IMG/VR virus record: IMGVR_UViG_3300045988_182948
Source of the DNA: a virus
Length of the DNA: 64,000 nucleotides
Reading direction: 5' to 3' (one strand)
Part shown: piece by piece, positions 7,096 to 39,992 of the stretch
Numbering within the stretch: the first letter of the stretch is position 1
Layout of the letters: each line of letters opens with the position of its first letter
Program-made: the position numbers and the translations under genes
The notes under the pieces: model-generated
What the model was told of the DNA's origin: nothing
Databases searched by the model: none
The model's input: the letters and a program-made list of their open reading frames with translations, nothing else

Positions 7096-7214
7096 TATCA
7101 ACCTCCGCAAAATCTTTACAATTCTTATTTTATCATGGAAATAGTCATTTAAGGAATATCTTTCCCGCCTATTATTGACTAATATTCTATTATATGTTAT
7201 AATTCGTTGGTAGA

Positions 7215-9401
7215 ATGAGGTGTTTTTTAACAATCTTCCTCTTCTTGGAGGTTATTCCTATAAAGAAACTTATTATTGCTGAAAAGCCTAATGTTATGAG
7301 AGAATTTGTTCACGCTTTGGATTCTCATGCCAAGAGTATTTGCTATGCCAAACCATATGTATATTACTATGAAGGAAAGGATTATATATTTGCAGCTGCT
7401 AATGGACATTTGTTTCAGGCAAAAAATCCTGAAGAAATTAGTATGAACAATAAAAAATGGGACGCTAAAAAACTAGATATCCCTGAAATTATTCCTATTA
7501 AGATAAATAAGCAATATGCTCAGTCATTTTATTGTCTAAAAGAACTTGTTAAAAGAAAAGATATTGATGAAATCATTGTTGCAACAGACCCAGATAGAGA
7601 AGGACAGTTAATATGGGAGCTGATTGCAAGAAATCTAAAAATAACTGTTCCTGTTACACGTATTTGGATTAATGAATGGACAGAAGCATCACTTATAAAA
7701 GCTTTTCATGGCAGAAAAGACAATAAGGTTTATCAGAACCTTGCCGATGCAGGCTTAGCAAGATTACAATCTGATTATCTTATTGGTATGACAGGTACTA
7801 GAGTGCATACTGTCTGCTTTGGTGGTTATAAAAATGTGATTAATGAGGGTCGTGTTCAGTCTCCTACTCGCTATTTAGTAGGAACTCTGGAAAAAACTAT
7901 CATGAACTTCAAACCTGAAAATTATCATATCATCCAACTCCAAACCGGGTCTGATGAAGCAGAAGCAATGACTCTCTTGAGTCATAAGTTAGACACAAAA
8001 GAATCATCAGGATTATTAGAGGTCTTGCCTTCCTATCAATATGAGATTTTAAAAGATGTTCATAAGGTTTCAAAAAAGGGGCCTAAACTATACAAGACAA
8101 ATGATATTCTTATGGATGCAAATAATAAATTAGGCTTATCTGCTGAAAAAACAACAGAAATTCTTCAAAAACTTTATCAGGACTATGCCCTAACAACATA
8201 TCCGCGTACAGAAATCCAACAGATTTCTATATCTGCATCCAAAGAGGTTATGAAAATAGTCAACAGCCTTGAGGGGGTAGGTCTTGTTGATGAGATTATT
8301 GATGAGATTAAGTCAAAACATATGACATTCCAAAAGCGTCTTATTAATTTTAGTGAGGGAGAAATGCCCCATGAAGCTATCACGCCTACATATGAAGGGA
8401 ATCCAAAAGCAACCTTATCAAAATTATCTCATGATGAAAGAAATGTTTATGAGCTGATTGTAAGAAGATTTTTACAGGGATTTTATCCTGAAGCTATTAT
8501 AGAAGAAACAAAAGTAGCAACTGTTATTTCCTATAGTGAAAAAGACTATACTTTCTCAAACTCTGGAAAAATCATTGTTGAACCATCATGGATGAAAGTG
8601 CTAGGCGTACCTCGTGACACTTATCTACCAGCCATTACTGACAGAAAAACCTATCCTTATGTCAATTCATTACTTGAAAGGAAAACAACAAAACCACCTT
8701 CAAGGTTTACTGAAGCAACTCTCTTAAATGCTATGGAGAATGCAGCAAGATATGTTGAGGATTCCTCATCAAAGACTATACTAAAAAAATCCAAAGGAAT
8801 TGGTACAGGTGCTACTAGAAATGAAATCATTAAAAACCTTTATAAAAGTGGCTTTATTATCAAAAAAGGAAAAACTATCTATCCAACTGATAAGCTTATG
8901 CAATGGATGGAAATTCTTCCAGAATCCCCTCTAAAATCTCCTCAAATGACTGCTGATTTAGAAAGTCAATTATCTGAAGTTGAAAAAGGAACATTATCCT
9001 TTCATAACTTTATGAATTCAGTTAATAATCAATTAGATGAACTTATCAAAGTTGCTTTATCCTCGCCTAAAACAAGTATTGTCTCATCGTCTATCAAAAC
9101 TCCTTCAAAAGACACTCATTCATTAGATTCTTTGGGGAATTGTCCAATCTGTGGAAAACCAATGAGAGAAAACAGCAAAAGCTTTTACTGCACAGGATAC
9201 AAGGAGGGATGTAAATTCTCTATTTGGAAAGAAATTAAAGGCAAGAAAATTAGTAAAAGAACAGCCGAAACATTAATTCATAAAGGCTATACTGGAAAAT
9301 TAAAAGGCTTTTATAGTGACAAAACTGGAAAGGATTTTGAAGCAAAACTTAAAATCAATAAATCAACACAAAAAGTTGAATTTGATTTTGATAAGAGGTA
9401 G
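7215..9401 (+). CDS. topB: type IA DNA topoisomerase (topoisomerase III-like) with a C-terminal zinc ribbon
   Basis: The Toprim N-terminus KLIIAEKPNV...AANGHLFQ, the catalytic core and the C-terminal CPICGKP...CTGYKEGCKF zinc ribbon are typical of mobile-element TopB proteins. The true start is uncertain: GGAGG at 7247-7251 is followed by no ATG before 7290, and an in-frame TTG sits at 7245. Confidence 0.8.
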   Translation: MRCFLTIFLFLEVIPIKKLIIAEKPNVMREFVHALDSHAKSICYAKPYVYYYEGKDYIFAAANGHLFQAKNPEEISMNNKKWDAKKLDIPEIIPIKINKQYAQSFYCLKELVKRKDIDEIIVATDPDREGQLIWELIARNLKITVPVTRIWINEWTEASLIKAFHGRKDNKVYQNLADAGLARLQSDYLIGMTGTRVHTVCFGGYKNVINEGRVQSPTRYLVGTLEKTIMNFKPENYHIIQLQTGSDEAEAMTLLSHKLDTKESSGLLEVLPSYQYEILKDVHKVSKKGPKLYKTNDILMDANNKLGLSAEKTTEILQKLYQDYALTTYPRTEIQQISISASKEVMKIVNSLEGVGLVDEIIDEIKSKHMTFQKRLINFSEGEMPHEAITPTYEGNPKATLSKLSHDERNVYELIVRRFLQGFYPEAIIEETKVATVISYSEKDYTFSNSGKIIVEPSWMKVLGVPRDTYLPAITDRKTYPYVNSLLERKTTKPPSRFTEATLLNAMENAARYVEDSSSKTILKKSKGIGTGATRNEIIKNLYKSGFIIKKGKTIYPTDKLMQWMEILPESPLKSPQMTADLESQLSEVEKGTLSFHNFMNSVNNQLDELIKVALSSPKTSIVSSSIKTPSKDTHSLDSLGNCPICGKPMRENSKSFYCTGYKEGCKFSIWKEIKGKKISKRTAETLIHKGYTGKLKGFYSDKTGKDFEAKLKINKSTQKVEFDFDKR

Positions 9402-9406: not shown

Positions 9407-9868
9407 ATGCATCATAAAAAAATAAATCTTATTATCTTCTCTTTTCTTGTTATTTGTTTTTTTTGTACTGGATGTACAAGTCGGCAACTAAAAGGAATAG
9501 AAGGAAAATGGTTGTTAAATAATCAGTCTCTTATGCTTATTGAGGAAAATACATTTGTTTGGTATCAAAACATTAATAAAACAGATACAGATTACTTAAA
9601 AGGAAAAGATGTAACCATTCTCTCTGGAGAAGAAGCACTTAATGCAATTAAGGTCCCTGATGCGAACAAAGATAAATTATTAAACACACACATTTATTAT
9701 TTAAGTGTCACTTATACAACAGTGGACATAAACGGTGTAGATGCTAGCCAACAAGCTGATGGAAAACTGAGTGAATTTGCCTTCCAGTTAAGTGGAAAAG
9801 ACCAATTATCTATTGTCAATTTAAATACAAATGAACAATACACTGCAAAAAGAGAGGTAAAAAAATGA
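9407..9868 (+). CDS. lipoprotein (signal peptide plus lipobox FFCTGC)
   Basis: N-terminal hydrophobic segment followed by the CTGC lipobox. Confidence 0.55.
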   Translation: MHHKKINLIIFSFLVICFFCTGCTSRQLKGIEGKWLLNNQSLMLIEENTFVWYQNINKTDTDYLKGKDVTILSGEEALNAIKVPDANKDKLLNTHIYYLSVTYTTVDINGVDASQQADGKLSEFAFQLSGKDQLSIVNLNTNEQYTAKREVKK

Positions 9869-10650
9869 GAATTTTTATAACTGGTGATACCCATGGTGAT
9901 TTTTCTTCTATACATACATTTTGTGAAAAGATGAACACAACAGTAAAAGATATTTTAATCATTGTTGGAGATTCAGGAATTAATTATAATGTCAATTCCT
10001 TTCATAATTCTCAATACAGTTATGAAGATACACAAGAGAACTTATGTTTTAAAAATTATCTGTCATATTTACCAATAACTCTATTCTGTATTCAAGGAAA
10101 TCACGAGGCTCCGGCTGAACTTGTAAAAGGATATCATCTAATACAGAATGTTCATCCACTTTTTAAAGAGCAATCTGTATTTTTACAAGATAATTATCCA
10201 AATATTCTTTTTGCAAACGAAGGTGAAGTCTATAATTTTTTAGGAAAAAGCGTTGCAATACTTGGTGGAGCTTATAGTGTTGATAAAAATTATAGAATTG
10301 CATTGAATAGAAACTGGTTCCCTGAAGAACAACCAGTAATAACTGGTAAAGATAAATTGTTTTTAAAAAATCTAGAAACTTATAACTGGAAAGTTGATAT
10401 TGTTCTTTCACACACTTGTCCATTTCACTATATGCCAACTGAAATGTTTTTAAGTGGAATTCAACAGGACCTCGTAGATAATACAACAGAGGAATTCCTT
10501 GAACATGTAGAAAAGAAATTAAATTATAAACAGTGGTATTGTGGACATTTTCACACAGATAAAACTGTAGATAAAATAAAGTTTCTCTTCCACAATATTA
10601 TTACTTTTATAGAAGATAACGAGGTACCCAATGACAAGACACAATACTAA
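9865..10650 (+). CDS. calcineurin-like metallophosphoesterase
   Basis: MRIFITGDTHGD, GDSG and GNHE motifs. The start overlaps the upstream stop (ATGA). Confidence 0.7.
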   Translation: MRIFITGDTHGDFSSIHTFCEKMNTTVKDILIIVGDSGINYNVNSFHNSQYSYEDTQENLCFKNYLSYLPITLFCIQGNHEAPAELVKGYHLIQNVHPLFKEQSVFLQDNYPNILFANEGEVYNFLGKSVAILGGAYSVDKNYRIALNRNWFPEEQPVITGKDKLFLKNLETYNWKVDIVLSHTCPFHYMPTEMFLSGIQQDLVDNTTEEFLEHVEKKLNYKQWYCGHFHTDKTVDKIKFLFHNIITFIEDNEVPNDKTQY

Positions 10651-11128
10651 AAAAAGACGAATACTTGATATTATTCCTATTATTATTTCGATTCTTCTGG
10701 TTATTGGAATTAATTTCTGTTTTCAACTGGTTTTAGTGAATGGTGATTCAATGAATCCAACATATCAGAACAATGACTTTTTAATCTCTTCAAAAATCGC
10801 CTATAAAAACCATTCTCCTCAAAAAGGAGATATCGTGATTGTAGATGGCAAGTCTAAAGATTTAGATATAGACATCATTAAACGAGTTGTAGCAACCCCA
10901 GGTGATACTGTAGAAATTAAAAAAGGCCAACTCATTATTAATGATAAAAAAGTAAAGGAAGACTACATAGATGAAACAATGAATAAGGATATGCATAAAA
11001 TGACTGTAAAGAAGAATACAGTGTTTATTATGGGAGACAACCGAAATCATAGTATAGATTCTCGGGTTTTTGGAAGTATTCCTATTCAGGATATCATGGG
11101 GAAAGTTATCTTTGATTTGAAATTTTAA
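10631..11128 (+). CDS. lepB: signal peptidase I (S26 family)
   Basis: GDSMNPTY catalytic Ser box, the Lys box and the GDNRNHSIDSR box, with an N-terminal TM anchor. Confidence 0.8.
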   Translation: MTRHNTKKRRILDIIPIIISILLVIGINFCFQLVLVNGDSMNPTYQNNDFLISSKIAYKNHSPQKGDIVIVDGKSKDLDIDIIKRVVATPGDTVEIKKGQLIINDKKVKEDYIDETMNKDMHKMTVKKNTVFIMGDNRNHSIDSRVFGSIPIQDIMGKVIFDLKF

Positions 11129-11130
11129 GA

Positions 11131-11156
11131 GGTATCAGAAGATACTTTTTATTTTA
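11131..11156 (+). terminator. rho-independent terminator after lepB
   Basis: Hairpin GTATCAGAAGATAC followed by TTTTTATTTTAT. Confidence 0.6.
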
Positions 11157-11186
11157 TATCCGCTGTTAACTTAGAGTTAATTTATA

Positions 11187-11215
11187 TTGACTAATACCTC
11201 TTCATATGATATAAT
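11187..11215 (+). promoter_or_regulatory. sigma-A consensus promoter (TTGACT-17-TATAAT) upstream of the ftsH-like gene
   Basis: Perfect -35 and -10 hexamers with a 17-nt spacer, 36 nt upstream of the ATG at 11252. Confidence 0.65.
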
Positions 11216-11251
11216 ATCACTGTAAAATTTACATAAGTGGAGTGATATTTT

Positions 11252-12892
11252 ATGAAAAAGAAAAAAGAATCGATGAAAAAAAACTCAATTATCCCATTTC
11301 TCTATGGGCTCGTTTTCATTGCTATTTATATATATTTAAGATATACAGCAGTTACTGATGGCACTCTTATTGCTTTTCTTCTTGTAGGCTTAATTAGCTT
11401 AGCTATCATCACATATAATCAGCTCAGAACAAATGAAATGGCTCATAGAAATGAAATTCTTACAAATGAAGCTGTTCAGTTAACCCAAACAGCTATGCAT
11501 TCTCACCCCAGCAATAGGAATGCATCTATGAAGTCAGATACTGAAAATTCTACACCTACTCTATTTAAAGTCTACTCACCAGACAATATGAAAACAAGGA
11601 TGAGTGATGTGGCTGGATGTAGTGAGGTCAAAGAAGACCTTATGGAAGTTATTGATTTCCTTAAAAATCCTCAAAAATATAATGAAATGGGTGCACACAT
11701 ACCTCATGGAATTCTATTTATGGGGCCTCCTGGCACAGGAAAAACAATGCTTGCAAGAGCTGTTGCTGGTGAAGCTAATGTCAAGTATATTTATTGTTCT
11801 GGCTCAGAATTTGTAGAAAAGTTTTCTGGGGTTGGGGCTGCTCGTGTCCGCGAATTATTTGAAGAAGCTAAAAAAGCACAGGGTCCTTGTATTATCTTTA
11901 TTGATGAAATTGATGCTATTGGTGGAGCTCGTAATCTTTCTGGAAATGACGCAGAAAAAGACAAAACCTTAAATCAGTTACTAGTTGAAATGGATGGATT
12001 TGAGAAATCAAATGATATCATTGTGATTGCTGCAACAAATCGTAAGGATATGCTAGATGAAGCCCTACTGCGTCCTGGGCGTTTTGATAGACAGATTCTT
12101 GTCGGATTGCCCACAAAAGAGGAACGATTAGAAATCCTAAAAGTACATTCCAAAAACAAGAAGGTCTCTTTGGATTTGGACTTGGAAAGTATTTCAAGAA
12201 AGACTCCAGGATTTTCGGGAGCTCAGCTTGCTGCAGTCCTTAACGAGAGTGCTCTGTTCGCTGTAAGAGAAAATAAATCATTCATTACAAATGATTTCGT
12301 GGATGAAGCAATTGATAGGGTTCTTATGGGTCCATCAAAAAAGAACAGAAAATATATTGATATAGAAAGAAACATCGTTGCTTATCATGAAGCTGGTCAT
12401 GCTGTTGTAGGATTGACTTTGGAAAATGCTATGCAGGTTGAAAAAATCACAATCATCCCTCGAGGTGATGCTGGTGGGTATAACTTGTTTTCTGAAAAAG
12501 AAGAGCGTTTTCTTAATACAAAAAACAGTATTCTTGCTGAAATTACTGGACTTCTTGCAGGACGTGCTGCTGAAGATTTAATGTTTAATGACATTACAAA
12601 TGGAGCAACAAGTGATTTGAAACAAGCAACAAACCTAGCTAGGCGATATATCTGCCAATATGGGATGAGTCAATTGGGTCTTGTGCAAATGGATGATGTT
12701 CGAAATCTTTCACCTCGAACATCTGAAAAGGTTGATATTGAAATCAAATCAATTCTTGATGAATGCTATTTAAAGAGTAAAGATTTATTAACTATGCATA
12801 AAAACCTTTTAGATGCCATTGCCTTGGAACTTTTGGATAAAGAAACAATTGATTCAACTCAAATTCAGAAATTGGCATGCCAGTATTGCTAG
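11252..12892 (+). CDS. ftsH: FtsH-like ATP-dependent zinc metalloprotease (short form, minimal periplasmic loop)
   Basis: Two N-terminal TM helices, Walker A GPPGTGKT, Walker B IIFIDEID, the SRH region and the HEAGHAV zinc-binding motif. At 546 aa it is shorter than canonical FtsH. Confidence 0.8.
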
Positions 12893-13065
12893 AAACCTAA
12901 TGTGACTTAGTGAAGCCTCTACAAACTATGTTTTGGCTTCTTTTTCATAAATATTTGCATTCTTCAACAAACTTTAGATTATAGAATAGAAATATAGAAA
13001 AATTTCCTAGTGATTTTATGTATGAGTTATCACTTGAAGAAATAGATTAAATAAAAATTATCAAG

Positions 13066-13080
13066 GTCACAAATTGTGAC
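13066..13080. promoter_or_regulatory. 7-1-7 palindrome GTCACAA-A-TTGTGAC, candidate operator upstream of the prepilin peptidase gene
   Basis: Seen directly in the sequence. Confidence 0.35.
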
Positions 13081-13265
13081 TTCACCAAATCACTTTCCAC
13101 AAGACAAAATTCCTTTTTTATCAATAGCATAATATAATTTCTACTCTATGATATAATATATATATATTTTCTAATCGAGGTATATATTCTATGAATATAG
13201 AATAAAAACATAAACAAGGTTATAGTGGTTTGCTATAGCCTCTTATTATAATTGGAGGTGGTTCA

Positions 13266-13733
13266 ATGCCCTATTTAGATATCGCTTTTACATTTGTTCT
13301 CTTAAGTATCTGTGCCTACACTGATACAAAGTTCAGAAAAATATATAACTGGATGACTCTTCCCTTCATAGCTATTGGTATTCTTAATACACTCCTGCTC
13401 TATGGACCTAAAGAGGGATTCATGAATTGTCTTTGGCTAATTCCTGCCCTTATTCTTTGTATTATCCTATTTAAACTGCATCAGATTGGTGGAGGTGATG
13501 CAAAGCTTATTTTAAGTGTTGGGGCTCTTATGGGTCTGGAATACACTCTTATTATCCTTCTTATTTCCTTTATATTAGGCTGGTTCTATTCAATATATCA
13601 GCTTCTTAAAAAAAGAAATAATAAAAAAGGAGTCTTAAAGGGACATCAGCAGATTATGATTCCTCTTGGAAGTATTATGCTGGTGGCTTTTGGGATTGTT
13701 GGGGGATTACAGGTATATTTGTTGTATTTATAA
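13266..13733 (+). CDS. A24-family prepilin peptidase (CpaA/TadV-like short form)
   Basis: Polytopic membrane protein with D...D catalytic positions and a GGGDAKL motif. Confidence 0.6.
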   Translation: MPYLDIAFTFVLLSICAYTDTKFRKIYNWMTLPFIAIGILNTLLLYGPKEGFMNCLWLIPALILCIILFKLHQIGGGDAKLILSVGALMGLEYTLIILLISFILGWFYSIYQLLKKRNNKKGVLKGHQQIMIPLGSIMLVAFGIVGGLQVYLLYL

Positions 13734-14034
13734 AACCTAAAGAAGAAGTTTTTTACTTCTTCCTTTGTATACTTTTCTTATTTCAAATAACACAAACACA
13801 AAAGTATCGCCTCCTGGAATGGCATGTTTTTCGTTGCTAAAGATGAAACTAGGGTTGCAACAGTTATTTCAAGAACATCTATCAAAAACGACACTCTCAA
13901 CCATATCATGAAATTTTATCACCTCCGCATAGAAACAATTCATTTATTTAGAATCTGAATGATTTCTATGCGGTTTTATTTTCATTTTTTTGACTATATG
14001 ATTCAACTATTGCTTGAGTTTACACCTAATTCGC

Positions 14035-14289
14035 GACAAAATAAAACTACGCAGAAGCCTCCTTTATTCCCTATTTTTTTATAATCTAGATAGACTATAA
14101 AATAAAGGAGAAAACAAGTATTACTCTGCGTAGAGGTGAATTTGCCTTTGGCTTGCAGGATAAAACCTGCCCTAAAAAAATGCTTGCCAAGTATCCTATT
14201 CATCGTTTTTGTAGATGGGACTATTAACGTTGTCTCAGAATTTTGGGGACATGAGCCATAAAAAGCAAGGGAGCAAAGGCTCCCTTTTT
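14035..14289 (+). ncRNA. repeated structured non-coding element, copy 1 (candidate sRNA with an intrinsic terminator)
   Basis: A conserved core is shared with 27196-27461. It has a P1 stem CTACGCAGA / TCTGCGTAG, an internal GCAGG / CCTGC stem, and a terminal hairpin GGGAGCAAAGGCTCCC plus a T-run. A possible TTTACA-17-TAAAAC promoter lies at 14021-14049. Confidence 0.5.
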
Positions 14290-14410
14290 CCTTGGCTTAA
14301 TTATATTATATAATGTTTTTGTTTTTTATTTATTTTTGATTGTGATTTGAAATTATCTATCTTGTAGCTTAAACTCAAGATAATAAAAAAGAGAACCCTC
14401 TCAGATTCCC

Positions 14411-15256
14411 TCAATTAACATTTACAAACTCGTTAAATACTTTTATCCCCTCTTCATTTCCTAGATGATTTTTCAAACAGTCAAGCAGGTCCATTTTACT
14501 TTGATAAGCTTCAACTACATAATCACTAATAGATAATTTTTCTGCCTTTTCTTTTAACTTCCGACTTGGATACAGTCTTTTATTATTTGAATAATTTTCG
14601 AAACATTTTAGTGCCTTTTTATATTCCTTCAACTTATTTATTTGTTTTCCGTTTATTAAAAATTGAAATTCTCTATTAAATATATCCCATTTCAAATTCA
14701 ATATATCATTACGAATCTCTTCATGTCTAAGTAATATTAACTTATCATAGTTAAGCTGACCTAGTAATTGGCATAGCTCATTCTCATTTCTTATATACAC
14801 TAGCATGTCCAAATCTATAAATTTTTCCAATCTCTTTATTAAGAGTGGTTCTTTTTGATAATCAGTAAGTATTTGACTAATTGATACATTAGGTATGCAG
14901 TCAATGTTGATGCTATAATCACCTTTTAATATGTTTATGGCGTCACCATATCCTTTATCTTTTGATACAATATAATACTCTTTGTTTTCTTTATATTTTA
15001 AAACCATCTTTGTTAGCTCAACAACAATACAAAAATCTAGTGAGTTCTTCTTTTGTTTACTGGCTGTATGTGTATAAAGCCCTATATTTCTATGATTCAT
15101 CAATGTATTCACACTATTAAAATCTATTTTTGCATTATTATTGCAAAAATAATAATAGTACGCATTTTTATCAATTGGAAAAGGCAATTCAAAACCTACA
15201 TTTTCACAATCAATAAAATAAACTTTCTTATATTTCTTGAATTTATTATTAAACAT
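14411..15256 (-). CDS. NYN/LabA-like (PIN-fold) domain protein
   Basis: The N-terminal KKVYFIDCENVG and IVSKDKGYGDAINIL resemble NYN-domain signatures. Confidence 0.4.
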   Translation of the reverse strand: MFNNKFKKYKKVYFIDCENVGFELPFPIDKNAYYYYFCNNNAKIDFNSVNTLMNHRNIGLYTHTASKQKKNSLDFCIVVELTKMVLKYKENKEYYIVSKDKGYGDAINILKGDYSINIDCIPNVSISQILTDYQKEPLLIKRLEKFIDLDMLVYIRNENELCQLLGQLNYDKLILLRHEEIRNDILNLKWDIFNREFQFLINGKQINKLKEYKKALKCFENYSNNKRLYPSRKLKEKAEKLSISDYVVEAYQSKMDLLDCLKNHLGNEEGIKVFNEFVNVN

Positions 15257-15283
15257 TTCTTATAATCCTTTCTTCTTATCTTT

Positions 15284-15580
15284 TTAATGCCAATTATCCG
15301 GCCAACCTACTGCCTGTCCACATCTATGGCAATGAGCATACCCAAACTCTTTAGATAAATCAGCTCCACATTTTGGGCAAAATGCTTTATCACCATCTGT
15401 GATGACTTGCTTATATTTGAATTGTCTATCAATGACTGATAGTATATAATCACACATACTTCTACCAAGCATGGATGATTCACCTAGAGTATGGAACAAT
15501 TTTTCTTCTAATTCTTCTCTTTCATATTTTATCATATTTTTCCTCCTACTCATTAATTTGAGTTTCTTTTGTTCCACCAA
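15284..15580 (-). CDS. zinc-ribbon protein
   Basis: CPKCGADL...CHRCGQ, i.e. two CxxC pairs. Confidence 0.4.
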   Translation of the reverse strand: MVEQKKLKLMSRRKNMIKYEREELEEKLFHTLGESSMLGRSMCDYILSVIDRQFKYKQVITDGDKAFCPKCGADLSKEFGYAHCHRCGQAVGWPDNWH

Positions 15581-15755
15581 ATTCAGTTGTAGAATAATTG
15601 CTGCACCCAGTTAAAGAAGAAACACATATTAACAACATTGCTACAATAAGTATATTTTTTTTAATCATTTCACTTTCTCCTATTCTTGTATTTTCATCAA
15701 CAATATAAATAAAAATTGTTTTCAATTATTATATTTTTATTGGTAAGTCTTTTTT

Positions 15756-15941
15756 TTAAAAATCAGTTGAACCAGTCCAAACTTCATTCTTTAAATTATC
15801 ATCTTCATGAGTACCCCTATGAAAACCAAAGAATATTGTTTCTTGTTTTTTATTTAACGCATCTGTAACTAAAGTTGGATTTTGAAAACAAAATTCATCT
15901 TCACTTTTTAAATCATGAAATTCTTCCATACTATCCTCCAT
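15756..15941 (-). CDS. small hypothetical protein
   Basis: 61-aa ORF. Confidence 0.25.
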   Translation of the reverse strand: MEDSMEEFHDLKSEDEFCFQNPTLVTDALNKKQETIFFGFHRGTHEDDNLKNEVWTGSTDF

Positions 15942-15967
15942 ATAAATACAAGGCTAATATTTTCCTC

Positions 15968-16528
15968 TTATATCTTATTCATATTCTCTAATCTTTTTTG
16001 CAACAGCATAGCAGTATTAATAGCATCATAAGAAGCATGATGTTCAGTCCCCTTAAACTCTCCAAATTCCTTTTCAACAATCTGCATAAGTGATGGCAAC
16101 TGCTGAAAGTTTTCCTGTTCCATGATATAGGATTGAAGGTCAATAAACGTCATCTCATTAAATTCCTTCTCGAATCCATTATCCTTACAGTTCACTCTTA
16201 AAACTGCTGAATCTCTAGGCCCCCATGATACATATAAAGTCTCTAAATTATCCTTATGAATCCATTTCAGGAATTCTTTAAAAACTTCACTAAAATTTAT
16301 TGATGATAGTATTTCATCTCTTGAAACTCCTGTTAAGGACAAGATAGAATTGGAAGGAATGTTATGAGGTTTAATGATTCTTCTGAATTTATCTCCTTCA
16401 ATAATTCTTTCTCCATATCTTGTTGTATATATTTTCTTAGCTGCTAATTCAAATATTTCTGTCTTATTCCTTTCTTTTGAAAATTCTAAATCAATAACGA
16501 TATATTGCCCAGCATAATCATAATTCAT
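15968..16528 (-). CDS. DEDDh 3'-5' exonuclease (DnaQ/epsilon-like)
   Basis: Exo I (YIVIDLEFS), Exo II and Exo III (HHASYDAINTAML) motifs. Confidence 0.7.
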   Translation of the reverse strand: MNYDYAGQYIVIDLEFSKERNKTEIFELAAKKIYTTRYGERIIEGDKFRRIIKPHNIPSNSILSLTGVSRDEILSSINFSEVFKEFLKWIHKDNLETLYVSWGPRDSAVLRVNCKDNGFEKEFNEMTFIDLQSYIMEQENFQQLPSLMQIVEKEFGEFKGTEHHASYDAINTAMLLQKRLENMNKI

Positions 16529-16668: not shown

Positions 16669-18855
16669 TTATAATCTTAGCATTTTTTTAAACACCTTAA
16701 ACATTTCATTTGGCAAATTCTGCGGATTCTTAACACATACAGAGTTTTCATAAATTTGTCTAATTGAATCAAAATCAAAATTACCTAAACCAATGCCAAC
16801 TGAATGGACTTGATAATGTTTTTTAAAAGTATTCATGATTTTCTGCATATCCTCTATTGCAGAAGCTCCACCATATTGTGCTGCTGCAGGTTCGCCATCT
16901 GAAAGTATAAAGAAATAAAGGTCTTCATCAGGTTGAGATGATTTTACCAACTCCCTTAAAGAATGAAATATAGCCAACCCATCTCGGTTATTTTCATGAG
17001 CCTTAATATGAAAGAGGTTATCGAGAGCCTGAAGTTTTCGACAGTTTTGGAAAGATATATATTTCCTTATTCTAACGTCTAAAGAAAAATCTTCATCATG
17101 TCCATATACAGCAAATGGGATTTTCAGCTTTTGAGCAGCCTTTGCTACCATCCAGCAGCCAACGATTGCATTTTCTATTTTAGAACCTCTCATACTTCCT
17201 GATTCATCTACTAAAATGATGAATCGGACTTTTTTCTTCTCTCCAGACGTTTCCTTCTTAAAAACCTGCAAATCAGTTTTTATTCTATAAAGTCCACTCA
17301 TATCAATGTTTCCTTCAAATCTGCCCTTTGATACATCATCCTGGCTTCTGTGCATAAGTATCTTTTTCATTTTTTTAGATAATTCATTCACAGATGATGA
17401 TAATTCATCTTTCTTTATCATTTTTAATGCTTCTTTTCCCTCTGATGTATATTCTTCTTTCATAGAAAGAGAATCCTCCAAATCAATCATAGATACAGAA
17501 ACGCTATGATGACACGCTGTCTCGCCTGCTCTTTCATCTTCATCAGATGTAATAGAGGCTTTCTCTGCTCTATCTTCAGTCTTCTCGAAAGTTTTTGATG
17601 CTCCATCTAAAGCTTCACTCATTGAATTGATGGCTTCATCTTCTAATTCCTTTGCTGTTGGTTTTGTTCTTTCTGGAGCAGCTGATTCATCTGACTTTGA
17701 ATCAGCTTCATCTTTCAGACTCTCTTTACCAAGTTCTTTTGCAGATTCTTCCATTTCCTTTTTTAAATCCTCAGGCAATCCTAAATCATATTTGCTTGGA
17801 GCAGAAGATTTCATTTTAGCGCCACCTCTCGCAGTGCCTCCTCCGCCCATGCTTTTCACTACTTCTGAATCAACTGAACCTGTACTTTTACTATGACTTT
17901 CTGCCTCTTTTGCCATTTTTTCCATCATCTCTTTGGCATGGTCAATATTATAAAGGTACTCATTTGTAAGATTATCTGCTATTTTGTCAAGTAGTGGCTG
18001 ACAAAGATTCAGTAATGCTTTGGCAGTTGCTGCTCTTTCATAGGTTGTTGGTGCTTCAAATCTTGCATATAAAGCAAGATTCTTAATCTTTTCAATATCA
18101 TCATCTTCAAACAATGCATTCAATACCTGTATATCAATATGTTTTCGATATCCAACATGTCCAAAAGCCTGTGCTTCAAAAAGCACAGCTCTTAGAGTAT
18201 TGTCATCCCAATTATCCATGTCAAGGCATACATAACCTGATTCAATGGCCTGTCTGAAAAGTTCTTTCTGCTTATCATGTCCTATATTCCTTAAAAATGT
18301 TAGGCATCCATTTTCTTCCCTTCCTTTTTCACACATACATCTATCTACAGATAAGTCTTCATATATGTTATTGACCTCTGGCATATTAACTTTAAAAACA
18401 AAGTCTCCTACCTTTTCTCTGACAAGAGGAATTAAATCTGCCTTATCTTCTTCCTTGGCAGAATGATAATCATTTGCTGCTTTTTCTACTTCTTTTTTAG
18501 CATCACAAAGGTCTTGGTGAAGCTGACCTATTATATTAAAGTCTGAATAAAGCAAATGCCCAGACTCATGGTAGATGAGAGCTTTTGCAATGATATGATA
18601 ATGAGATGTATCAAAGGCTTTATCTTCATAAGTCCACAAATCTATATTCATAATAGGATTGCCATCTTTATCAAAACTTGTAAAACTGCTCCCAACCTTA
18701 TCCATATAAAAGTTTAAGTTCATTCTTTTGGAAACTATCTGAGCCAAACTCTTGAAAGAAGCTTTGTACCCCTTGCTGGAAAGTAATTCTATCCCTGTTA
18801 AAATTCTTTTTTTACTTTTCTTTCCCAATAGTGATTTCTTTGTTGGTTTCTTCAT
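16669..18855 (-). CDS. vWA-domain protein (CobT/CbbO/NorD-like partner of a MoxR-type ATPase) with an N-terminal HExxH motif
   Basis: C-terminal vWA with MIDAS (ILVDESGSM...SDGEP). HESGH at about residue 97. A long acidic/Ser-rich linker. Confidence 0.6.
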   Translation of the reverse strand: MKKPTKKSLLGKKSKKRILTGIELLSSKGYKASFKSLAQIVSKRMNLNFYMDKVGSSFTSFDKDGNPIMNIDLWTYEDKAFDTSHYHIIAKALIYHESGHLLYSDFNIIGQLHQDLCDAKKEVEKAANDYHSAKEEDKADLIPLVREKVGDFVFKVNMPEVNNIYEDLSVDRCMCEKGREENGCLTFLRNIGHDKQKELFRQAIESGYVCLDMDNWDDNTLRAVLFEAQAFGHVGYRKHIDIQVLNALFEDDDIEKIKNLALYARFEAPTTYERAATAKALLNLCQPLLDKIADNLTNEYLYNIDHAKEMMEKMAKEAESHSKSTGSVDSEVVKSMGGGGTARGGAKMKSSAPSKYDLGLPEDLKKEMEESAKELGKESLKDEADSKSDESAAPERTKPTAKELEDEAINSMSEALDGASKTFEKTEDRAEKASITSDEDERAGETACHHSVSVSMIDLEDSLSMKEEYTSEGKEALKMIKKDELSSSVNELSKKMKKILMHRSQDDVSKGRFEGNIDMSGLYRIKTDLQVFKKETSGEKKKVRFIILVDESGSMRGSKIENAIVGCWMVAKAAQKLKIPFAVYGHDEDFSLDVRIRKYISFQNCRKLQALDNLFHIKAHENNRDGLAIFHSLRELVKSSQPDEDLYFFILSDGEPAAAQYGGASAIEDMQKIMNTFKKHYQVHSVGIGLGNFDFDSIRQIYENSVCVKNPQNLPNEMFKVFKKMLRL

Positions 18856-18894
18856 AATTTCTCCTTTATATTGAAAGGGATGAAAAAATCATCC

Positions 18895-20691
18895 CTAAAC
18901 TAATTCTATTGTTTCAAATTCATATTCTTTTCTTGGCATTTTAGGTTTAACGCCTGCAAATGTATTCATAATCTCATTATAAGCATAATCAATCACAGGG
19001 TCTCCTGTTGCAGTAAAGTCTTCTGGTTTATTTGACCCCTTTACTCTATCAACTTCTTTTGATAGAGGGGCAAGTACTGTTGTAAAAGCGGCTCTTACTG
19101 GATTGTCAATATCCTTAATCTTTTTAGCCCAAGATAGACAATTACGTAAGTCAATATTTTGTGTTGTTTCATCTCCATCATCTCTAATTTGTGTCTTGAT
19201 GTTATTCTTGCATTTAATAATCTTAGAAGCTAAATCTCTATCAATACCTGTAGAGTTAACTATGATATTTGTTTCTGTCATCTCATCATATCCTGATAAA
19301 TTATGCCACTCATCAACACGTGAAATATGAGACAAATTATCTTCTTTTGTTCCTTCATACCCTATATTCATAGCTTCACAATATCTAAAATTATCATGAG
19401 CGATGATTGTTTCTCCAGTTTGAGGAATTGTATACATTCTTGTATCATCAAGCACATTATTTGTTGCTGAAACAACGCCTGCATTCACCATGTTTCTTTC
19501 ATCAAAGAAAAAGATTCCACCATATCTCATAATTCTTGTCAATGGACCTTCACAAAATTCTGTTGTACCATCCTTAATTGTCATATATCCATATAAGTGA
19601 GATGTTTCTGTATCACTATTTCCTGTCAGAATCATGAAAGGCAATTTTAACGCCCCTGCCATCATTTTAACGAATGTTGTTTTCCCTGATGCAGATGGAC
19701 CATAGAATCCCATTTTCCAGATATTTCCGTTTTTAAAGCTTTGAATTGATTCCCATAACTCATCTGTTATTGACTCCTTATTTTTTTCAAATAAGTCCAT
19801 AGCAATTTGACGAGTTCTTTGTAAATCAAGCGGTAATTTCTTTGCTTCTGCATCAGACATTAATGAATAGTCTCTTTCAGAATATGGTACAAATACAGTT
19901 GCTGCTTTAGCATCTTTTCCTTTTTTACTCTTTCTTTTAATAGTTGGAGCATGAATTTCCTTAACTACTTCATCCCCAATATCAAGAGACAAATCATACA
20001 CATTATTGTGCATTGCAACTAAAGGAAGAATATTATATTGGATATAAGGGGCATATTCTTCATCAATGAGTTCATCATTGTCAATCTCCTTGAAATTAAA
20101 TCCATCAAATGTTTTAGCAGTAAAATATAGCGAATCACATAAAGGCAAAAATTTCTCTGCTTCTGATGATTCGACTAAAGTTCCTGCGGTTATAGAATCA
20201 TATTTTTCCTTAGGAAGATTTTTAAATTCACACAAATATGAGAAAACTTCTCTTGCTTCATCACTTGCTTTATTTCCCTTTTTCACAAACTCTAATAAAT
20301 CATATCCCAAAATCAATCTATAAAAGAGATGTGAATAGATATTTGTAGCATAAATCATTTTATCTGCTGGAATGACTACGAATGTTTCAATAGGATTTTT
20401 CGTACCCCCAGTGAATTTACATAAAAGAAATTCCTTTTTATCCTTTTTTCCCCACGCCATAATTGTGTTTTCATCAACAATTTGCGAATCAATTACTGCT
20501 TTAGCAATTTTACTTGATAGCCTTGATACGATTTTTCCACTCGATGGTGAAGGTGTTGTATTTTTAATTGAATAAAAATGCTCATCCTCCTTGTTTGCTG
20601 TAAATTGAGTGTTTGGAATTAAACTTCCTGCATCCGTTGAAGAAAATGCCATCCTAGATGCTTGATAAATCGTTTTTTTAATTGCTGCCAT
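18895..20691 (-). CDS. MoxR/CobS/CbbQ-like AAA+ ATPase (AAA_5 type) with a ~300-aa N-terminal extension
   Basis: Walker A GPSASGKTT and Walker B IFFFDE. Lies immediately upstream of the vWA partner with a 39-nt gap. Confidence 0.6.
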   Translation of the reverse strand: MAAIKKTIYQASRMAFSSTDAGSLIPNTQFTANKEDEHFYSIKNTTPSPSSGKIVSRLSSKIAKAVIDSQIVDENTIMAWGKKDKKEFLLCKFTGGTKNPIETFVVIPADKMIYATNIYSHLFYRLILGYDLLEFVKKGNKASDEAREVFSYLCEFKNLPKEKYDSITAGTLVESSEAEKFLPLCDSLYFTAKTFDGFNFKEIDNDELIDEEYAPYIQYNILPLVAMHNNVYDLSLDIGDEVVKEIHAPTIKRKSKKGKDAKAATVFVPYSERDYSLMSDAEAKKLPLDLQRTRQIAMDLFEKNKESITDELWESIQSFKNGNIWKMGFYGPSASGKTTFVKMMAGALKLPFMILTGNSDTETSHLYGYMTIKDGTTEFCEGPLTRIMRYGGIFFFDERNMVNAGVVSATNNVLDDTRMYTIPQTGETIIAHDNFRYCEAMNIGYEGTKEDNLSHISRVDEWHNLSGYDEMTETNIIVNSTGIDRDLASKIIKCKNNIKTQIRDDGDETTQNIDLRNCLSWAKKIKDIDNPVRAAFTTVLAPLSKEVDRVKGSNKPEDFTATGDPVIDYAYNEIMNTFAGVKPKMPRKEYEFETIELV

Positions 20692-27021: not shown

Positions 27022-27195
27022 ATCTTCCTCCTAAAAAAGACTATCTTTCCTTGAAAAATAGCCACTTCGTTATATATTACTATAAATAGTATATCATGAT
27101 TAAAAACATATTTAATTTTATCAATATTTAATTTTATCAACAGGTTTATTCTTATTTTTATAATTCAAGTTATACTTGAATCTATTTTATATTTA

Positions 27196-27461
27196 TGACA
27201 AAATAAAACTACGCAGACAAGTGATTACTCTGCGTAGAGGTGAAATTGCCTTTGGCTTGCAGGATAAAACCTGCCTTAAAAAAATGCTTGCCAAGTATCC
27301 TATTCATCGTTTTTGTAGATGTCATAGAATGCCTGGCAACAAAAAACATGTCACTCATAAACACAATTATCTTTACCCTGATTGTAGATGTGACTATTAA
27401 CGTTGTCTCAGAATTTTGGAGACATGAGCCAAAATAGGCATGGGAGCGAAAGCTCCCTTTT
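27196..27461 (+). ncRNA. repeated structured non-coding element, copy 2
   Basis: Same core as 14035-14289. It lacks the 58-nt hairpin insert of copy 1 but carries a 69-nt insert at 27321-27389 flanked by TGTAGATG direct repeats. Terminator GGGAGCGAAAGCTCCC plus T-run. Confidence 0.5.
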
Positions 27462-33487: not shown

Positions 33488-33517
33488 TTATTAAAAAGAG
33501 AGGTATTAATCCTCTCT
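33488..33517 (-). terminator. terminator overlapping the flotillin stop codon
   Basis: AGAGAGG-TATTAAT-CCTCTCT hairpin plus T-run on the minus strand. Confidence 0.5.
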
Positions 33518-34963
33518 CTTATCATTACTCATTTTTTCCAATGCTTTCACTCCAACTAATGACCCAAGAATCTGATTAAGATTTAAGCCCAACCCTTGTT
33601 CCATTCCTGTATTTACTTGATGAGTTGTCTTCATGACATCCTCAATCAGTTTTGCGCTATTCCCTTCACCATACATTGTAATGTTGCCAATCTTTTCAAG
33701 TGGTTTGGCTGCCGCTTCAACTGCTTTTGGCCATGCATTGAAGTACATTTCTGCAATTGCTGCTTCGCCATATTTTTTCATCGCTTCAGCTTTTTTATCT
33801 AATGCTTCAGCTTCAGCAATACCTTTGGCTTCAATAGCCTTGGCTTCTGCTTCCCCTTTTGCACGGATACCTGAGGCTTCCTGCTCCATTTGATATTTTA
33901 AGGCTTCAGCTTGTGCTTTCTTGGCTTGAGCTTCTTTTTCCTGCTCAAATTTCCACGCTTCTGCATTTTGCTGACGTGCATATAAATCAGCCTCTGCTCT
34001 TTGCTGTGCAGCAAATTTTTCTGCTTCAGCTTGCTTCTTGATTTTTGCATCAAGTTCCTGTTCTGTAACTTCAACGTCTTTACGTCTCAATTCAATTTCT
34101 TTTTCCTGTCTCATAATATTTGCGTCAGCTGTTGCAATTTCAATTGCTTTACGAGACTGTTCCTGCTGAATTGTATATGCTGCATCTGCTTCAGCTTGTT
34201 TTGCATCTGCAGTCTTCTTTAATTCAGCTTTTTTGATAGCTAATTCATTATTCTTTTCTGCAATGATTGTTTCAGCAGCAATTTTTGCATCATTTGCTTC
34301 CTGGAATGCTTTTGACTGAGCCTGAGCAATATCTCTTTCACTCACAGCACGAGAAATTGCCGCATTTTTTTGAATCTTTACAATATTGTCAACCCCAAGA
34401 TTTTCAATAACACCATTGCCATCAACAAAATTCTGAACATTAAACGAAACAATATCCAAACCCATCTTTGCCAAATCAGGTTCAGCATTCTCCTTTACCA
34501 ATTCAGCAAACTTCTGTCTATCGGAAACCATTTCCTCAAGATTCATACGTCCTACGATTTCACGCATATTCCCTTCCAAAACTTCTCTTGCAACATTGGC
34601 AATATAATCAACTCTCTTATTCAAGAAGTTCTGTGCAGCTAATCCTAAACGTTCACTGTTATCACTAATCTTGACATTGACTGCTGCATCTACATTAATG
34701 TTGATATAGTCAGCAGTTGGTACAGCACTAGACGTTTTGACATCAATGGGAATTAACTGTAAATTCAATTCATCTTTCTTCTCTAAAAATGGAATTTTAA
34801 TTCCTGCTTTCCCAATTAAAACCTTTGGTTGTTTTCTCAGTCCTGAAATAATATATGCAGTGTCTGGTGATGCCTTGACATATCCTGTCAATACAATCAC
34901 TAAAATAAGAGCTCCTACTAAAACACCTGTAATCACTCCAGGATTCATTAAAAAATCTAACAT
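33506..34963 (-). CDS. flotillin / SPFH (band 7) family protein
   Basis: N-terminal TM, SPFH core, long Ala/Glu/Lys-rich coiled coil (EAEAKAIEAKGIAEAEAL...). Confidence 0.75.
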   Translation of the reverse strand: MLDFLMNPGVITGVLVGALILVIVLTGYVKASPDTAYIISGLRKQPKVLIGKAGIKIPFLEKKDELNLQLIPIDVKTSSAVPTADYININVDAAVNVKISDNSERLGLAAQNFLNKRVDYIANVAREVLEGNMREIVGRMNLEEMVSDRQKFAELVKENAEPDLAKMGLDIVSFNVQNFVDGNGVIENLGVDNIVKIQKNAAISRAVSERDIAQAQSKAFQEANDAKIAAETIIAEKNNELAIKKAELKKTADAKQAEADAAYTIQQEQSRKAIEIATADANIMRQEKEIELRRKDVEVTEQELDAKIKKQAEAEKFAAQQRAEADLYARQQNAEAWKFEQEKEAQAKKAQAEALKYQMEQEASGIRAKGEAEAKAIEAKGIAEAEALDKKAEAMKKYGEAAIAEMYFNAWPKAVEAAAKPLEKIGNITMYGEGNSAKLIEDVMKTTHQVNTGMEQGLGLNLNQILGSLVGVKALEKMSNDKRED

Positions 34964-38188: not shown

Positions 38189-38263
38189 TGGTGTGAAAGA
38201 CGGGAATCGAACCCGTATAGTTGGAGCCACAATCCACCGCACTACCATTGTGCTACAATCACC
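38189..38263 (-). tRNA. tRNA-His (GUG) with G-1; two T:T mismatches in the acceptor stem
   Basis: Manual fold: T-arm ACGGG/TTCGATT/CCCGT, anticodon loop TTGTGGC, encoded CCA. Confidence 0.5.
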
Positions 38264-38316
38264 ATCATTATTTTATAAAGCAACACGCAAAAAGTGAGTG
38301 TTCGTCATAAAATATT

Positions 38317-38391: not shown

Positions 38392-38399
38392 ATGTTTTT

Positions 38400-38473: not shown

Positions 38474-38517
38474 GCAAATATTTTCTTTTTGTTTTACAAT
38501 ATTTTAACTTTATATTT

Positions 38518-39989: not shown

Positions 39990-39992
39990 ATA

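What the first reader, a model, noticed from the sequence alone, without database searches (positions are those of the whole stretch)
9407..13733. Replicon-borne membrane-protease cluster: lipoprotein, phosphoesterase, signal peptidase I, short FtsH, prepilin peptidase
Downstream of topB, four genes are translationally coupled with overlapping stop and start codons: a lipoprotein, a metallophosphoesterase, and signal peptidase I (S26, GDSMNPTY). These are followed by a terminator (11131-11156). A perfect TTGACT-17-TATAAT promoter (11187-11215) then drives an FtsH-like AAA metalloprotease that keeps Walker A/B and HEAGH but has only a minimal extracytoplasmic loop and a truncated C-terminus. 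A 7-1-7 palindromic operator (13066-13080) and an A24 prepilin-peptidase-like membrane protein (GGGDAKL) follow. Three different membrane-embedded protease families on one accessory replicon suggest it carries its own machinery for processing secreted or pilin-like substrates, or a protease-based exclusion or quality-control module.
Basis: partly seen in the sequence, partly recalled or inferred. Interest (0 to 1): 0.55.

Follow-up and report, generated by a model that had tools for sequence, protein, structure and literature searches.

The report
Membrane protease cluster on giant element
A very large, undescribed extrachromosomal element of human-gut Coprobacillus-type bacteria carries a conserved gene block for three intact membrane proteases (signal peptidase I, an FtsH without its outer domain, and a minimal prepilin-peptidase-like enzyme) plus an orphan surface lipoprotein; it most likely processes and polices the element's own membrane and secreted proteins, but no substrate has been identified.

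Summary
All genes lie at the stated coordinates. Profile searches support S26, M41/AAA (FtsH) and A24 above their curated cut-offs, and every catalytic residue is present. The FtsH has two transmembrane helices joined by a loop of about 8 residues instead of the usual extracytoplasmic domain.

New evidence: the block topB – lipoprotein – (S26) – short FtsH – A24 recurs in the same order in six lineages whose proteins are only 43–78% identical. The short FtsH proteins form their own clade beside Erysipelotrichales housekeeping FtsH. The lipoprotein and A24 families are almost confined to these elements. The lipoprotein is predicted to be a lipocalin-like β-barrel.

The host replicon is at least 205 kb, about 31% GC, and comes from the human gut. 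It has 21 tRNA genes, RepA_N/ParA and a split DNA polymerase III α. No relative exists in the annotated plasmid or phage collections searched.

Corrections:
- The metallophosphoesterase is lineage-specific.
- S26 is missing in one lineage.
- Only two gene junctions overlap.
- The 7-1-7 palindrome is neither unusual nor conserved.
- No prepilin-type substrate, pilus-assembly gene or known defence system was found.

Function is inferred: an element-borne toolkit for envelope-protein processing and quality control. This is a new variant of known kinds and moderately interesting.

The parts
7175..7203 (+). Promoter-like site TTGACT-17-TATAAT with TG extension, upstream of topB. Shares ATTGACTAATA and ATATGNTATAAT blocks with the ftsH promoter.
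7215..9401 (+). topB (DNA topoisomerase III with Toprim_Crpt tail), first gene of the upstream operon. True start uncertain (ATG 7215, or in-frame ATA 7260 after GGAGG).
9407..9868 (+). Conserved orphan lipoprotein (lipobox ..CTGC; Cys23). Predicted 8-stranded lipocalin-like beta-barrel. Present in 6 of 6 lineages.
9865..10650 (+). Calcineurin-like metallophosphoesterase. ATGA overlap with the lipoprotein gene. Found only in the window lineage, so not part of the conserved module.
10631..11128 (+). Type I signal peptidase (S26), N-terminal TM anchor at residues 17-35, Ser/Lys dyad and box E intact. Present in 5 of 6 lineages.
11126..11156 (+). Terminator-like hairpin (11 bp, -10 kcal/mol) followed by a U-rich tract, after S26.
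11187..11215 (+). Promoter-like site TTGACT-17-TATAAT with TG extension, upstream of ftsH.
11252..12892 (+). Short FtsH (546 aa): TM1 11-29, loop of about 8 aa, TM2 37-55, linker of about 50 aa, AAA+ module, M41 protease. No FtsH_ext domain and no C-terminal tail. Present in 6 of 6 lineages.
13066..13080 (.). 7-1-7 palindrome GTCACAAATTGTGAC. Present, but single-copy, not above chance and not conserved. An operator role is not supported.
13149..13157 (+). Extended -10-like motif TGATATAAT within the 373-nt ftsH-A24 spacer (poor -35). Possible extra promoter, specific to the window/L010 lineages.
13217..13251 (+). Hairpin plus CTCTTATTAT tract immediately before the A24 ribosome-binding site. 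Conserved in position in all lineages with different stem sequences. Terminator/attenuator-like.
13266..13733 (+). Minimal A24 (GxGD) aspartyl intramembrane peptidase, 155 aa, D20 and D78 invariant, no methyltransferase domain. Present in 6 of 6 lineages.
13742..13762 (+). Terminator-like hairpin after the A24 gene (-9.6 kcal/mol, z -3.0).

Best explanation
The cluster is a conserved, element-encoded toolkit for envelope-protein processing and quality control. It belongs to a family of very large extrachromosomal elements of gut Erysipelotrichales.

Shown:
- Three catalytically intact proteases act at three different places in the membrane. Signal peptidase I has its active site on the outer face behind a single anchor. 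The A24 GxGD aspartyl protease cuts inside the membrane near the cytoplasmic face. FtsH is a membrane-tethered AAA+ zinc protease with cytoplasmic active sites.
- They are co-conserved with an orphan lipocalin-like surface lipoprotein.
- The FtsH was captured once from the host lineage and lost its extracytoplasmic domain.

Inferred:
- The signal peptidase matures the element's own Sec-exported proteins. At least two classical signal-peptide proteins and several lipoproteins are encoded in this window.
- The short FtsH extracts and degrades surplus or misassembled membrane proteins, or unstable regulators. Lacking the outer domain, it may do so without the control that SPFH-family partners exert through that domain.
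- The A24 enzyme removes short N-terminal leaders, or remnant type II-oriented peptides, from substrates still to be found on the rest of the element or in the host.
- The two halves are transcribed from two near-identical strong promoters. A conserved hairpin ahead of the A24 gene probably keeps that enzyme at a lower level than FtsH.
For: - Family membership and catalytic residues.
- Topologies.
- Conserved order topB-(TM protein)-lipoprotein-(S26)-FtsH-A24 in six lineages at 43-78% protein identity.
- The short FtsH proteins form a clade next to Erysipelotrichales housekeeping FtsH. Their N-terminal regions are 104-128 aa against 157-167 aa.
- The lipoprotein and A24 families are nearly restricted to these elements (7 and 20 hits in 5.8 billion proteins).
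- The lipoprotein model is confident and lipocalin-like.
- Sec-type signal peptides at 36733-37536 and 47459-48448, and lipoboxes at 48458-48910 and 15546-15725.
- Other proteostasis genes lie on the same element: flotillin and a Clp_N-AAA protein.
- Precedents: plasmid SipP (PMC5243856), mobile FtsH xenologues in tLST (PMC7685784, PMC8290217) and jumbo phages (PMC6892783), and gut megaplasmids carrying SecYEG, trigger factor and sortases for their own surface proteins (PMC12934698).
Against: - No substrate has been identified for any of the three enzymes.
- No class III signal peptide was found in about 180 kb examined.
- S26 is absent from one lineage (L011), so the three proteases are not an obligate trio.
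- The entire region from pol III alpha to AAA_5/VWA is syntenic. Adjacency may therefore reflect vertical inheritance rather than functional coupling.
- The genes sit among replication genes rather than next to genes for secreted proteins.
- There are no expression data.
Confidence: 0.45

Rival explanations
1. Pilus or pseudopilus maturation. The A24 enzyme is a TadV/FlaK-like prepilin peptidase that processes pilin-like proteins. These would be encoded elsewhere on the element (at least 140 kb was not seen) or by the host, and would serve transfer, adhesion or DNA uptake. SPase and FtsH would be accessory.
For: PF01478 match with both catalytic Asp invariant. The only solved relative is the preflagellin peptidase FlaK. 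All characterised A24 enzymes cleave class III signal peptides (established knowledge). More than two thirds of the element was not examined.
Against: No class III signal peptide was found in the window, its flanks, or the loci of five related elements. No T2SSE-type assembly ATPase or platform protein appeared among the Pfam-scanned ORFs. Prepilin peptidase genes normally sit in or near pilus operons, whereas here the conserved neighbours are ftsH and an exonuclease.
Confidence: 0.15
2. Regulated proteolysis cascade. The lipocalin-like lipoprotein senses an outside cue. Signal peptidase makes a site-1 cut in a membrane-spanning regulator, the GxGD protease makes the intramembrane site-2 cut, and FtsH degrades the released cytoplasmic fragment. 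This would switch the element's life cycle or gene expression.
Against: No anti-sigma-like or membrane-bound regulator substrate was identified. No bacterial A24 enzyme is known to perform site-2 cleavage. S26 is missing in L011. The lipocalin fold is generic.
Confidence: 0.12
3. Conflict module. The block excludes competing phages or plasmids, or counters host defences. The surface lipoprotein could block entry (as in Llp/Ltp-type exclusion), and FtsH or A24 could degrade host or invader membrane proteins, receptors or pilins.
Against: PADLOC finds no defence family for four of the five proteins, only AAA cross-hits for FtsH, and no IetS partner. The block is core and syntenic rather than sitting in a variable island. 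Retaining the full, canonical catalytic machinery does not discriminate between readings.
Confidence: 0.13
4. No joint function. These are independently useful host-derived auxiliary genes that happen to be neighbours because the whole region is inherited vertically.
For: Synteny extends well beyond the proteases, from pol III alpha and topB on one side to RNase_T, VWA and AAA_5 on the other. S26 and the phosphoesterase come and go. There are two separate promoters, with terminators between the parts.
Against: Four consecutive envelope-associated genes lie inside a DNA-metabolism region in every lineage. Lipoprotein/S26 and ftsH/A24 are tightly spaced, at 24-146 nt in relatives. The lipoprotein and A24 families are essentially found only together with the short FtsH.
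Confidence: 0.15

Closest known systems
Housekeeping FtsH of Bacillota (nearest: Sharpea and other Erysipelotrichales, 54-56% identity)
   Same: AAA+ module, second region of homology, pore-loop aromatic, HEXXH and downstream Asp, and two N-terminal TM helices. Passes TIGR01241 (603.5 bits against a cut-off of 600).
   Different: The extracytoplasmic domain (PF06480) is replaced by a loop of about 8 residues. The TM2-to-AAA linker is longer and there is no C-terminal tail. It forms a separate long-branched clade and is encoded on an extrachromosomal element.
Mobile FtsH xenologues: tLST/TLPQC islands of Proteobacteria (PMC7685784, PMC8290217), jumbo phages PA5oct/MIJ3 (PMC6892783), phytoplasma PMU hflB (PMC10210161)
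   Same: An extra FtsH copy carried by a mobile element. Its function is mostly unknown or linked to protein quality control.
   Different: Different hosts and partners: tLST pairs FtsH with sHSPs and ClpK, and PMUs pair it with replication genes. None is reported with a signal peptidase, an A24 peptidase and a lipoprotein. The phage proteins are only 41% identical.
Plasmid-borne type I signal peptidase SipP of Bacillus (for example pS499; PMC5243856)
   Same: A P-type S26 signal peptidase with a Ser-Lys dyad and a single N-terminal anchor, encoded on an accessory replicon of a Bacillota host.
   Different: SipP sits on small cryptic plasmids without FtsH or A24 partners. Here S26 is embedded in a conserved operon of an element of at least 205 kb and is dispensable in one lineage.
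Minimal A24 peptidases TadV/CpaA and archaeal FlaK (PDB 3S0X)
   Same: A protein of about 150 aa with only the multi-TM core, two catalytic Asp (one in GxGD), and no N-methyltransferase domain. FlaK is the only PDB sequence match (E 2e-4).
   Different: It is not located in a pilus or archaellum operon. No class III substrate is nearby. The family is almost confined to these elements.
Hodor conjugative megaplasmids of gut Bacillota (PMC12934698)
   Same: Very large gut Bacillota extrachromosomal elements that bring their own protein-export machinery (SecYEG, trigger factor, sortases) for their own surface proteins.
   Different: Hodors have 44-47% GC, a Rep_3 initiator, a T4SS and giant surface proteins. 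This element has about 31% GC, RepA_N, 21 tRNAs, a split pol III alpha and proteases rather than translocon genes. There is no sequence relationship.
Bacterial lipocalin-like lipoproteins and barrels (Tp0751, BtaiB, VtrC/ToxS, potempin E)
   Different: Sequence identity is 5-16% and the family has no Pfam model. The ligand or partner is unknown.

Membership tests
Peptidase S26 (type I signal peptidase, P-type) | Profile match above the curated cut-off | tested here: met
   PF10502 147.5 bits (cut-off 22.9); TIGR02227 141.9 bits (cut-off 47)
Peptidase S26 (type I signal peptidase, P-type) | Ser-Lys catalytic dyad and box E (GDNR..S.DSR) | tested here: met
   Ser of GDSM and Lys of IKRV align with SpsB and 4NV4. 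Box E is GDNRNHSIDSR. All are conserved in four orthologues
Peptidase S26 (type I signal peptidase, P-type) | N-terminal membrane anchor placing the catalytic domain outside | tested here: met
   Hydrophobic segment at residues 17-35 after a basic N-terminus
Peptidase S26 (type I signal peptidase, P-type) | Cleaves Sec signal peptides | not testable with these tools
   Candidate substrates with AXA-type sites exist in the window (36733-37536, 47459-48448)
FtsH (AAA+ / peptidase M41) | AAA+ module with Walker A/B, second region of homology and pore-loop aromatic | tested here: met
   [36 protein letters not shown] and [10 protein letters not shown] are present. Conserved in 10 clade members
FtsH (AAA+ / peptidase M41) | M41 domain with HEXXH and a third zinc ligand | tested here: met
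   PF01434 181.8 bits; HEAGH present. The Asp in TSDL aligns with the Asp of T. maritima GAANDIERAT. Its identity as the third ligand is recalled from Bieniossek et al. 2006
FtsH (AAA+ / peptidase M41) | Two N-terminal TM helices | tested here: met
   Residues 11-29 and 37-55
FtsH (AAA+ / peptidase M41) | Extracytoplasmic FtsH_ext domain (PF06480) between the TM helices | tested here: not met
   Absent from all 536-564 aa clade members and present in the housekeeping hits. TIGR01241 matches only from model position 146. This is typical of the family but not required for catalysis
Peptidase A24 (prepilin / preflagellin peptidase) | Profile match and two catalytic Asp (second in GxGD) in a multi-TM core | tested here: met
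   PF01478 59.6 bits (cut-off 26.5). D20 and D78 are invariant in 10 sequences and align with the two motif regions of FlaK
Peptidase A24 (prepilin / preflagellin peptidase) | Substrate with a class III signal peptide encoded nearby or on the same replicon | tested here: inconclusive
   None found in the window, about 20 kb of flank, or five related loci. At least 140 kb of the element and the host genome were not seen
Peptidase A24 (prepilin / preflagellin peptidase) | N-methyltransferase domain (PilD/ComC type) | tested here: not met
   The protein is 155 aa and consists of the protease core only, as in TadV and FlaK
Type IV pilus / Tad / Com pseudopilus system | Assembly ATPase (T2SSE), platform protein and pilins in the locus | tested here: not met
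   No such Pfam hit among the window ORFs scanned. Several mid-sized ORFs were scanned only against PHROGs
Known anti-phage defence systems (PADLOC), for example Iet | Match to the system's signature proteins (IetA plus IetS) | tested here: not met
   Only AAA-domain cross-hits of FtsH to IetA and TRIP13. There is no IetS, and the other four proteins have no hit
tLST / TLPQC stress-tolerance island | FtsH together with sHSPs, ClpK and the other island genes | tested here: not met
   The neighbours are topB, lipoprotein, S26, A24 and RNase_T. The host phylum is different
Bacterial lipoprotein | Signal peptide ending in a lipobox with an invariant Cys | tested here: met
   ..FFCTGC / LLVGC / LTAC / LIGC in orthologues. 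Lipidation itself is not testable

The most novel reading that the evidence does not exclude
The four conserved genes form a self-contained proteolytic relay carried by a giant mobile element. A lipocalin-like surface sensor gates a signal-peptidase (site-1) cut. A bacterial A24 GxGD protease then acts as a site-2 protease or signal-peptide peptidase, a role so far known only for eukaryotic and archaeal presenilin/SPP-type GxGD enzymes. A domain-stripped FtsH removes the released fragment. The relay would thereby control the element's life cycle in response to a gut cue.
Probability: 0.1. Interest if true: 0.75.

Novelty: new variant of a known kind. Interest (0 to 1): 0.45.

Why it matters
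Each enzyme family is well known, and single extra copies on plasmids, islands or jumbo phages have been reported. A conserved block that combines signal peptidase I, an FtsH lacking its extracytoplasmic domain, a minimal A24 protease and an element-specific lipocalin lipoprotein does not appear in the literature searched.

The block sits in the core of an undescribed family of elements of at least 200 kb from human and animal gut Erysipelotrichales. If it works as proposed, very large mobile elements invest in their own membrane-protein maturation and quality control, in parallel with the SecYEG/sortase module of Hodor megaplasmids.

It also offers a natural 'minimal' FtsH for studying what the extracytoplasmic domain is for. 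And it offers an A24 protease with no pilus context, whose substrate could broaden the known roles of that family.

Tried and rejected
- Megablast of the 7-kb region against PLSDB plasmids and INPHARED phages gave no match.
- tblastn of the FtsH against both collections found only housekeeping-like or distant phage FtsH at 51% identity or less.
- IMG/VR scans with the FtsH and A24 proteins found no close relative.
- The RepA_N initiator and the AAA_5 protein gave only remote hits: Staphylococcus plasmid RepA at 29-30% identity over about a third of the protein, and unrelated phage AAA proteins. The element could therefore not be assigned to a known plasmid or phage group.
- PHROG scans of 40 proteins from the window and flanks found DNA-metabolism functions and one Ig-domain protein, but no capsid, terminase, portal or tail genes. 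Phage versus plasmid remains open.
- Walking beyond about 10 kb from the window edges was not possible with the look-up rules.
- Strict and loose motif scans for type IV pilin, Flp and generic class III leaders found nothing. The single hit lay inside the A24 gene itself.
- The palindrome-as-operator idea was rejected on statistics, copy number and lack of conservation.
- PADLOC membership was rejected.
- Identity with Hodor megaplasmids was rejected on GC content and Rep type.
- Rfam found no known RNA in the ftsH-A24 spacer or downstream.
- The afdb50 fold library was unavailable.
- Two of my own promoter pattern searches used the wrong spacer length and are uninformative.

Full report
**Observation**

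Profile searches support every family assignment above curated thresholds:
- Peptidase_S26: 147.5 bits against a cut-off of 22.9. TIGR02227 signal peptidase I: 141.9 against 47.
- Peptidase_M41: 181.8 bits, plus AAA at 156 bits. TIGR01241 FtsH: 603.5 against 600.
- Peptidase_A24: 59.6 against 26.5.
- Metallophos: 51.6 against 21.5.
- topB is a topoisomerase III with the Toprim_Crpt tail.
- The 153-aa first gene has no hit in Pfam, NCBIfam, PHROGs or PADLOC. It does have a typical lipoprotein signal peptide and lipobox.

**Catalytic competence**

- The signal peptidase keeps the Ser of GDSM, the Lys of IKRV and box E (GDNRNHSIDSR). These align with S. aureus SpsB and PDB 4NV4.
- The FtsH aligns from residue 107 to 542 with Thermotoga FtsH 2CE7. 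It keeps Walker A and B, the second region of homology, the pore-loop Phe, HEAGH and the downstream Asp, which I recall as the third zinc ligand.
- The A24 protein keeps both catalytic aspartates, D20 and D78 of GGGD. Both are invariant in ten family members and align with the two motif regions of FlaK.
- The same residues are retained in all orthologues inspected.

**FtsH architecture**

Hydropathy puts two helices at residues 11-29 and 37-55, leaving a loop of about eight residues. TIGR01241 matches only from model position 146. None of the 536-564 aa relatives carries PF06480, whereas the housekeeping hits do. The region before the AAA module is 104-128 aa in the short clade and 157-167 aa in housekeeping proteins. 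The protein ends five residues after the M41 model, so the 'truncation' is only the loss of the variable tail.

**DNA signals**

- TTGACT-17-TATAAT with a TG extension is at 11187-11215. A second promoter of the same design lies at 7175-7203, before topB. The two share ATTGACTAATA and ATATGNTATAAT.
- The hairpin after S26 (11126-11151) folds at -10 kcal/mol with z -3.2.
- Only two junctions overlap: ATGA at 9865-9868 and 20 nt at 10631-10650. topB and the lipoprotein gene are 5 nt apart.
- The 7-1-7 palindrome is real. However, the window holds six comparable GC-containing palindromes against 3.4 expected. It occurs once and is absent from relatives, whose ftsH-A24 spacers are only 24-145 nt.
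- What is conserved in that spacer is a hairpin plus a U-rich tract directly before the A24 ribosome-binding site. Each lineage has a different stem sequence. This looks like a leaky terminator that would lower A24 expression relative to FtsH.

**The replicon**

- The window is about 31% GC.
- It encodes RepA_N, ParA, RecD2, DHH proteins, a Y-family polymerase, an AAA_5/VWA pair, a flotillin and 21 tRNA genes.
- Just beyond the window lie a Clp_N-AAA protein, RadC and a DNA polymerase III alpha gene in two pieces.
- In relatives the polymerase gene is broken by HNH and GIY-YIG endonuclease genes.
- Identical proteins occur on many human-gut assemblies, on contigs up to 180 kb and 205 kb.
- One near-identical FtsH is labelled Coprobacillus cateniformis. 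A relative lies in a Massilimicrobiota MAG. Both are Erysipelotrichales.
- Nothing similar exists in PLSDB, INPHARED or IMG/VR.
- No virion, conjugation or pilus genes were seen in about 84 kb of this element. It is an undescribed large extrachromosomal element with both plasmid-like and phage-like traits.

**Conservation**

In six lineages (the window, L010, L011, L012, L013/L014 and L015) the order is pol III alpha, topB, (a small two-TM protein in four lineages), lipoprotein, S26, short FtsH, A24, followed by convergent RNase_T, VWA and AAA_5.

Identity to the window proteins is:
- 43-57% for the lipoprotein,
- 46-57% for S26,
- 52-65% for FtsH,
- 52-78% for A24.

The lipoprotein, FtsH and A24 are present in six of six lineages, S26 in five of six and the phosphoesterase in one of six. 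A neighbour-joining tree places all short FtsH proteins in one long-branched clade beside Erysipelotrichales housekeeping FtsH (no bootstrap was done). This fits one capture from the host lineage followed by loss of the outer domain. The lipoprotein and A24 families gave only 7 and 20 hits in 5.8 billion proteins, on the same contigs as the short FtsH where contig lengths can be compared.

**The lipoprotein**

The fold suggests a ligand- or protein-binding module on the outer face of the membrane. It does not identify the partner.

**Substrates**

Strict and loose scans for class III leaders found none in the window, its flanks or the five related loci. The window does encode two proteins with classical Sec signal peptides (36733-37536 and 47459-48448) and further lipoproteins. 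None has a known domain.

**Interpretation**

The best-supported reading is an element-encoded toolkit for maturing and policing envelope proteins (confidence 0.45).

The enzymology, topology, conservation and origin are shown. The substrates and any cooperation between the enzymes are inferred. Precedents exist for each part:
- plasmid SipP (PMC5243856);
- mobile FtsH copies in tLST islands (PMC7685784, PMC8290217), jumbo phages (PMC6892783) and phytoplasma mobile units (PMC10210161);
- gut megaplasmids that carry SecYEG, trigger factor and sortases (PMC12934698).

Hodors themselves are a different element, with 44-47% GC and a Rep_3 initiator.

The rivals are pilin maturation for substrates encoded elsewhere, a regulated-proteolysis relay, a conflict or exclusion module, and mere vertical co-inheritance. 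Each is rated 0.12-0.15. The last deserves weight, because the whole region, and not only the proteases, is syntenic.

**Verdict**

The finding is a new variant of known kinds, and interest is moderate (0.45). The undescribed giant element that carries the block may be as interesting as the block itself.

Noticed in passing
window 38189-42231 (- strand): An array of 21 tRNA genes covering 18 amino acids (no Glu, Lys or Val) on the same element. Local GC rises to 40%.
   Followed up: partly
whole window; L030-L035: The replicon is an undescribed element of at least 205 kb from human-gut Erysipelotrichales. It has RepA_N and ParA, but also homing endonucleases and a split DNA pol III alpha. No relative exists in PLSDB, INPHARED or IMG/VR, and no virion or conjugation genes were seen in about 84 kb.
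   Followed up: partly
window 13997-14288 and 27159-27461: A two-copy non-coding repeat of about 290 nt, 90-98% identical in its core; the second copy has an insertion of about 69 nt. Each copy ends in a strong GC hairpin plus T-run. No Rfam family matches. It may be an sRNA gene or a small mobile element.
   Followed up: partly
window 7175-7203 and 11187-11215: The two strong promoters share identical ATTGACTAATA (-35 block) and ATATGNTATAAT (-10 block). The -35 block ATTGACTAATA occurs only at these two positions in the copies of this element that were fetched.
   Followed up: partly
window 7215-7262: The topB ORF from ATG 7215 has about 16 extra N-terminal residues relative to family models, and almost no leader after the promoter. 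A GGAGG at 7247-7251 precedes an in-frame ATA at 7260, so the true start codon is uncertain.
   Followed up: no
window 33506-34963 (-); L030 12026-13273: A flotillin (Band_7 + Flot) and a Clp_N-AAA (ClpA/B-like) protein are further membrane and proteostasis genes on the element. From memory, flotillins are reported partners of FtsH in B. subtilis.
   Followed up: no
window 16669-20691 (-); L012, L013, L015: An AAA_5 ATPase and a VWA/CobT_C-like protein (a MoxR/CobS-CobT-like pair), plus an RNase_T exonuclease, are conserved convergently next to the A24 gene in relatives. In L011 only the RNase_T carries a domain call.
   Followed up: no
L011 8932-9438; L012 8591-8971; L013 8525-8935; L015 6855-7274: Four related lineages carry an extra small protein with two TM helices and a C-terminal soluble domain, between topB and the lipoprotein gene. 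It is absent from the window and L010.
   Followed up: no
window 13734-15968: Between the A24 gene and RNase_T, the window lineage has an insertion that relatives lack. It holds a PIN7-domain protein (14411-15256), a zinc-ribbon-like 98-aa ORF and a lipoprotein ORF of about 40 aa (within 15546-15725).
   Followed up: no
P0028: The closest named non-clade hit to the short FtsH is a 472-aa FtsH of Candidatus Phytoplasma pruni with a very short N-terminus. It groups next to the short clade in the NJ tree. This could reflect shared ancestry or long-branch attraction.
   Followed up: no
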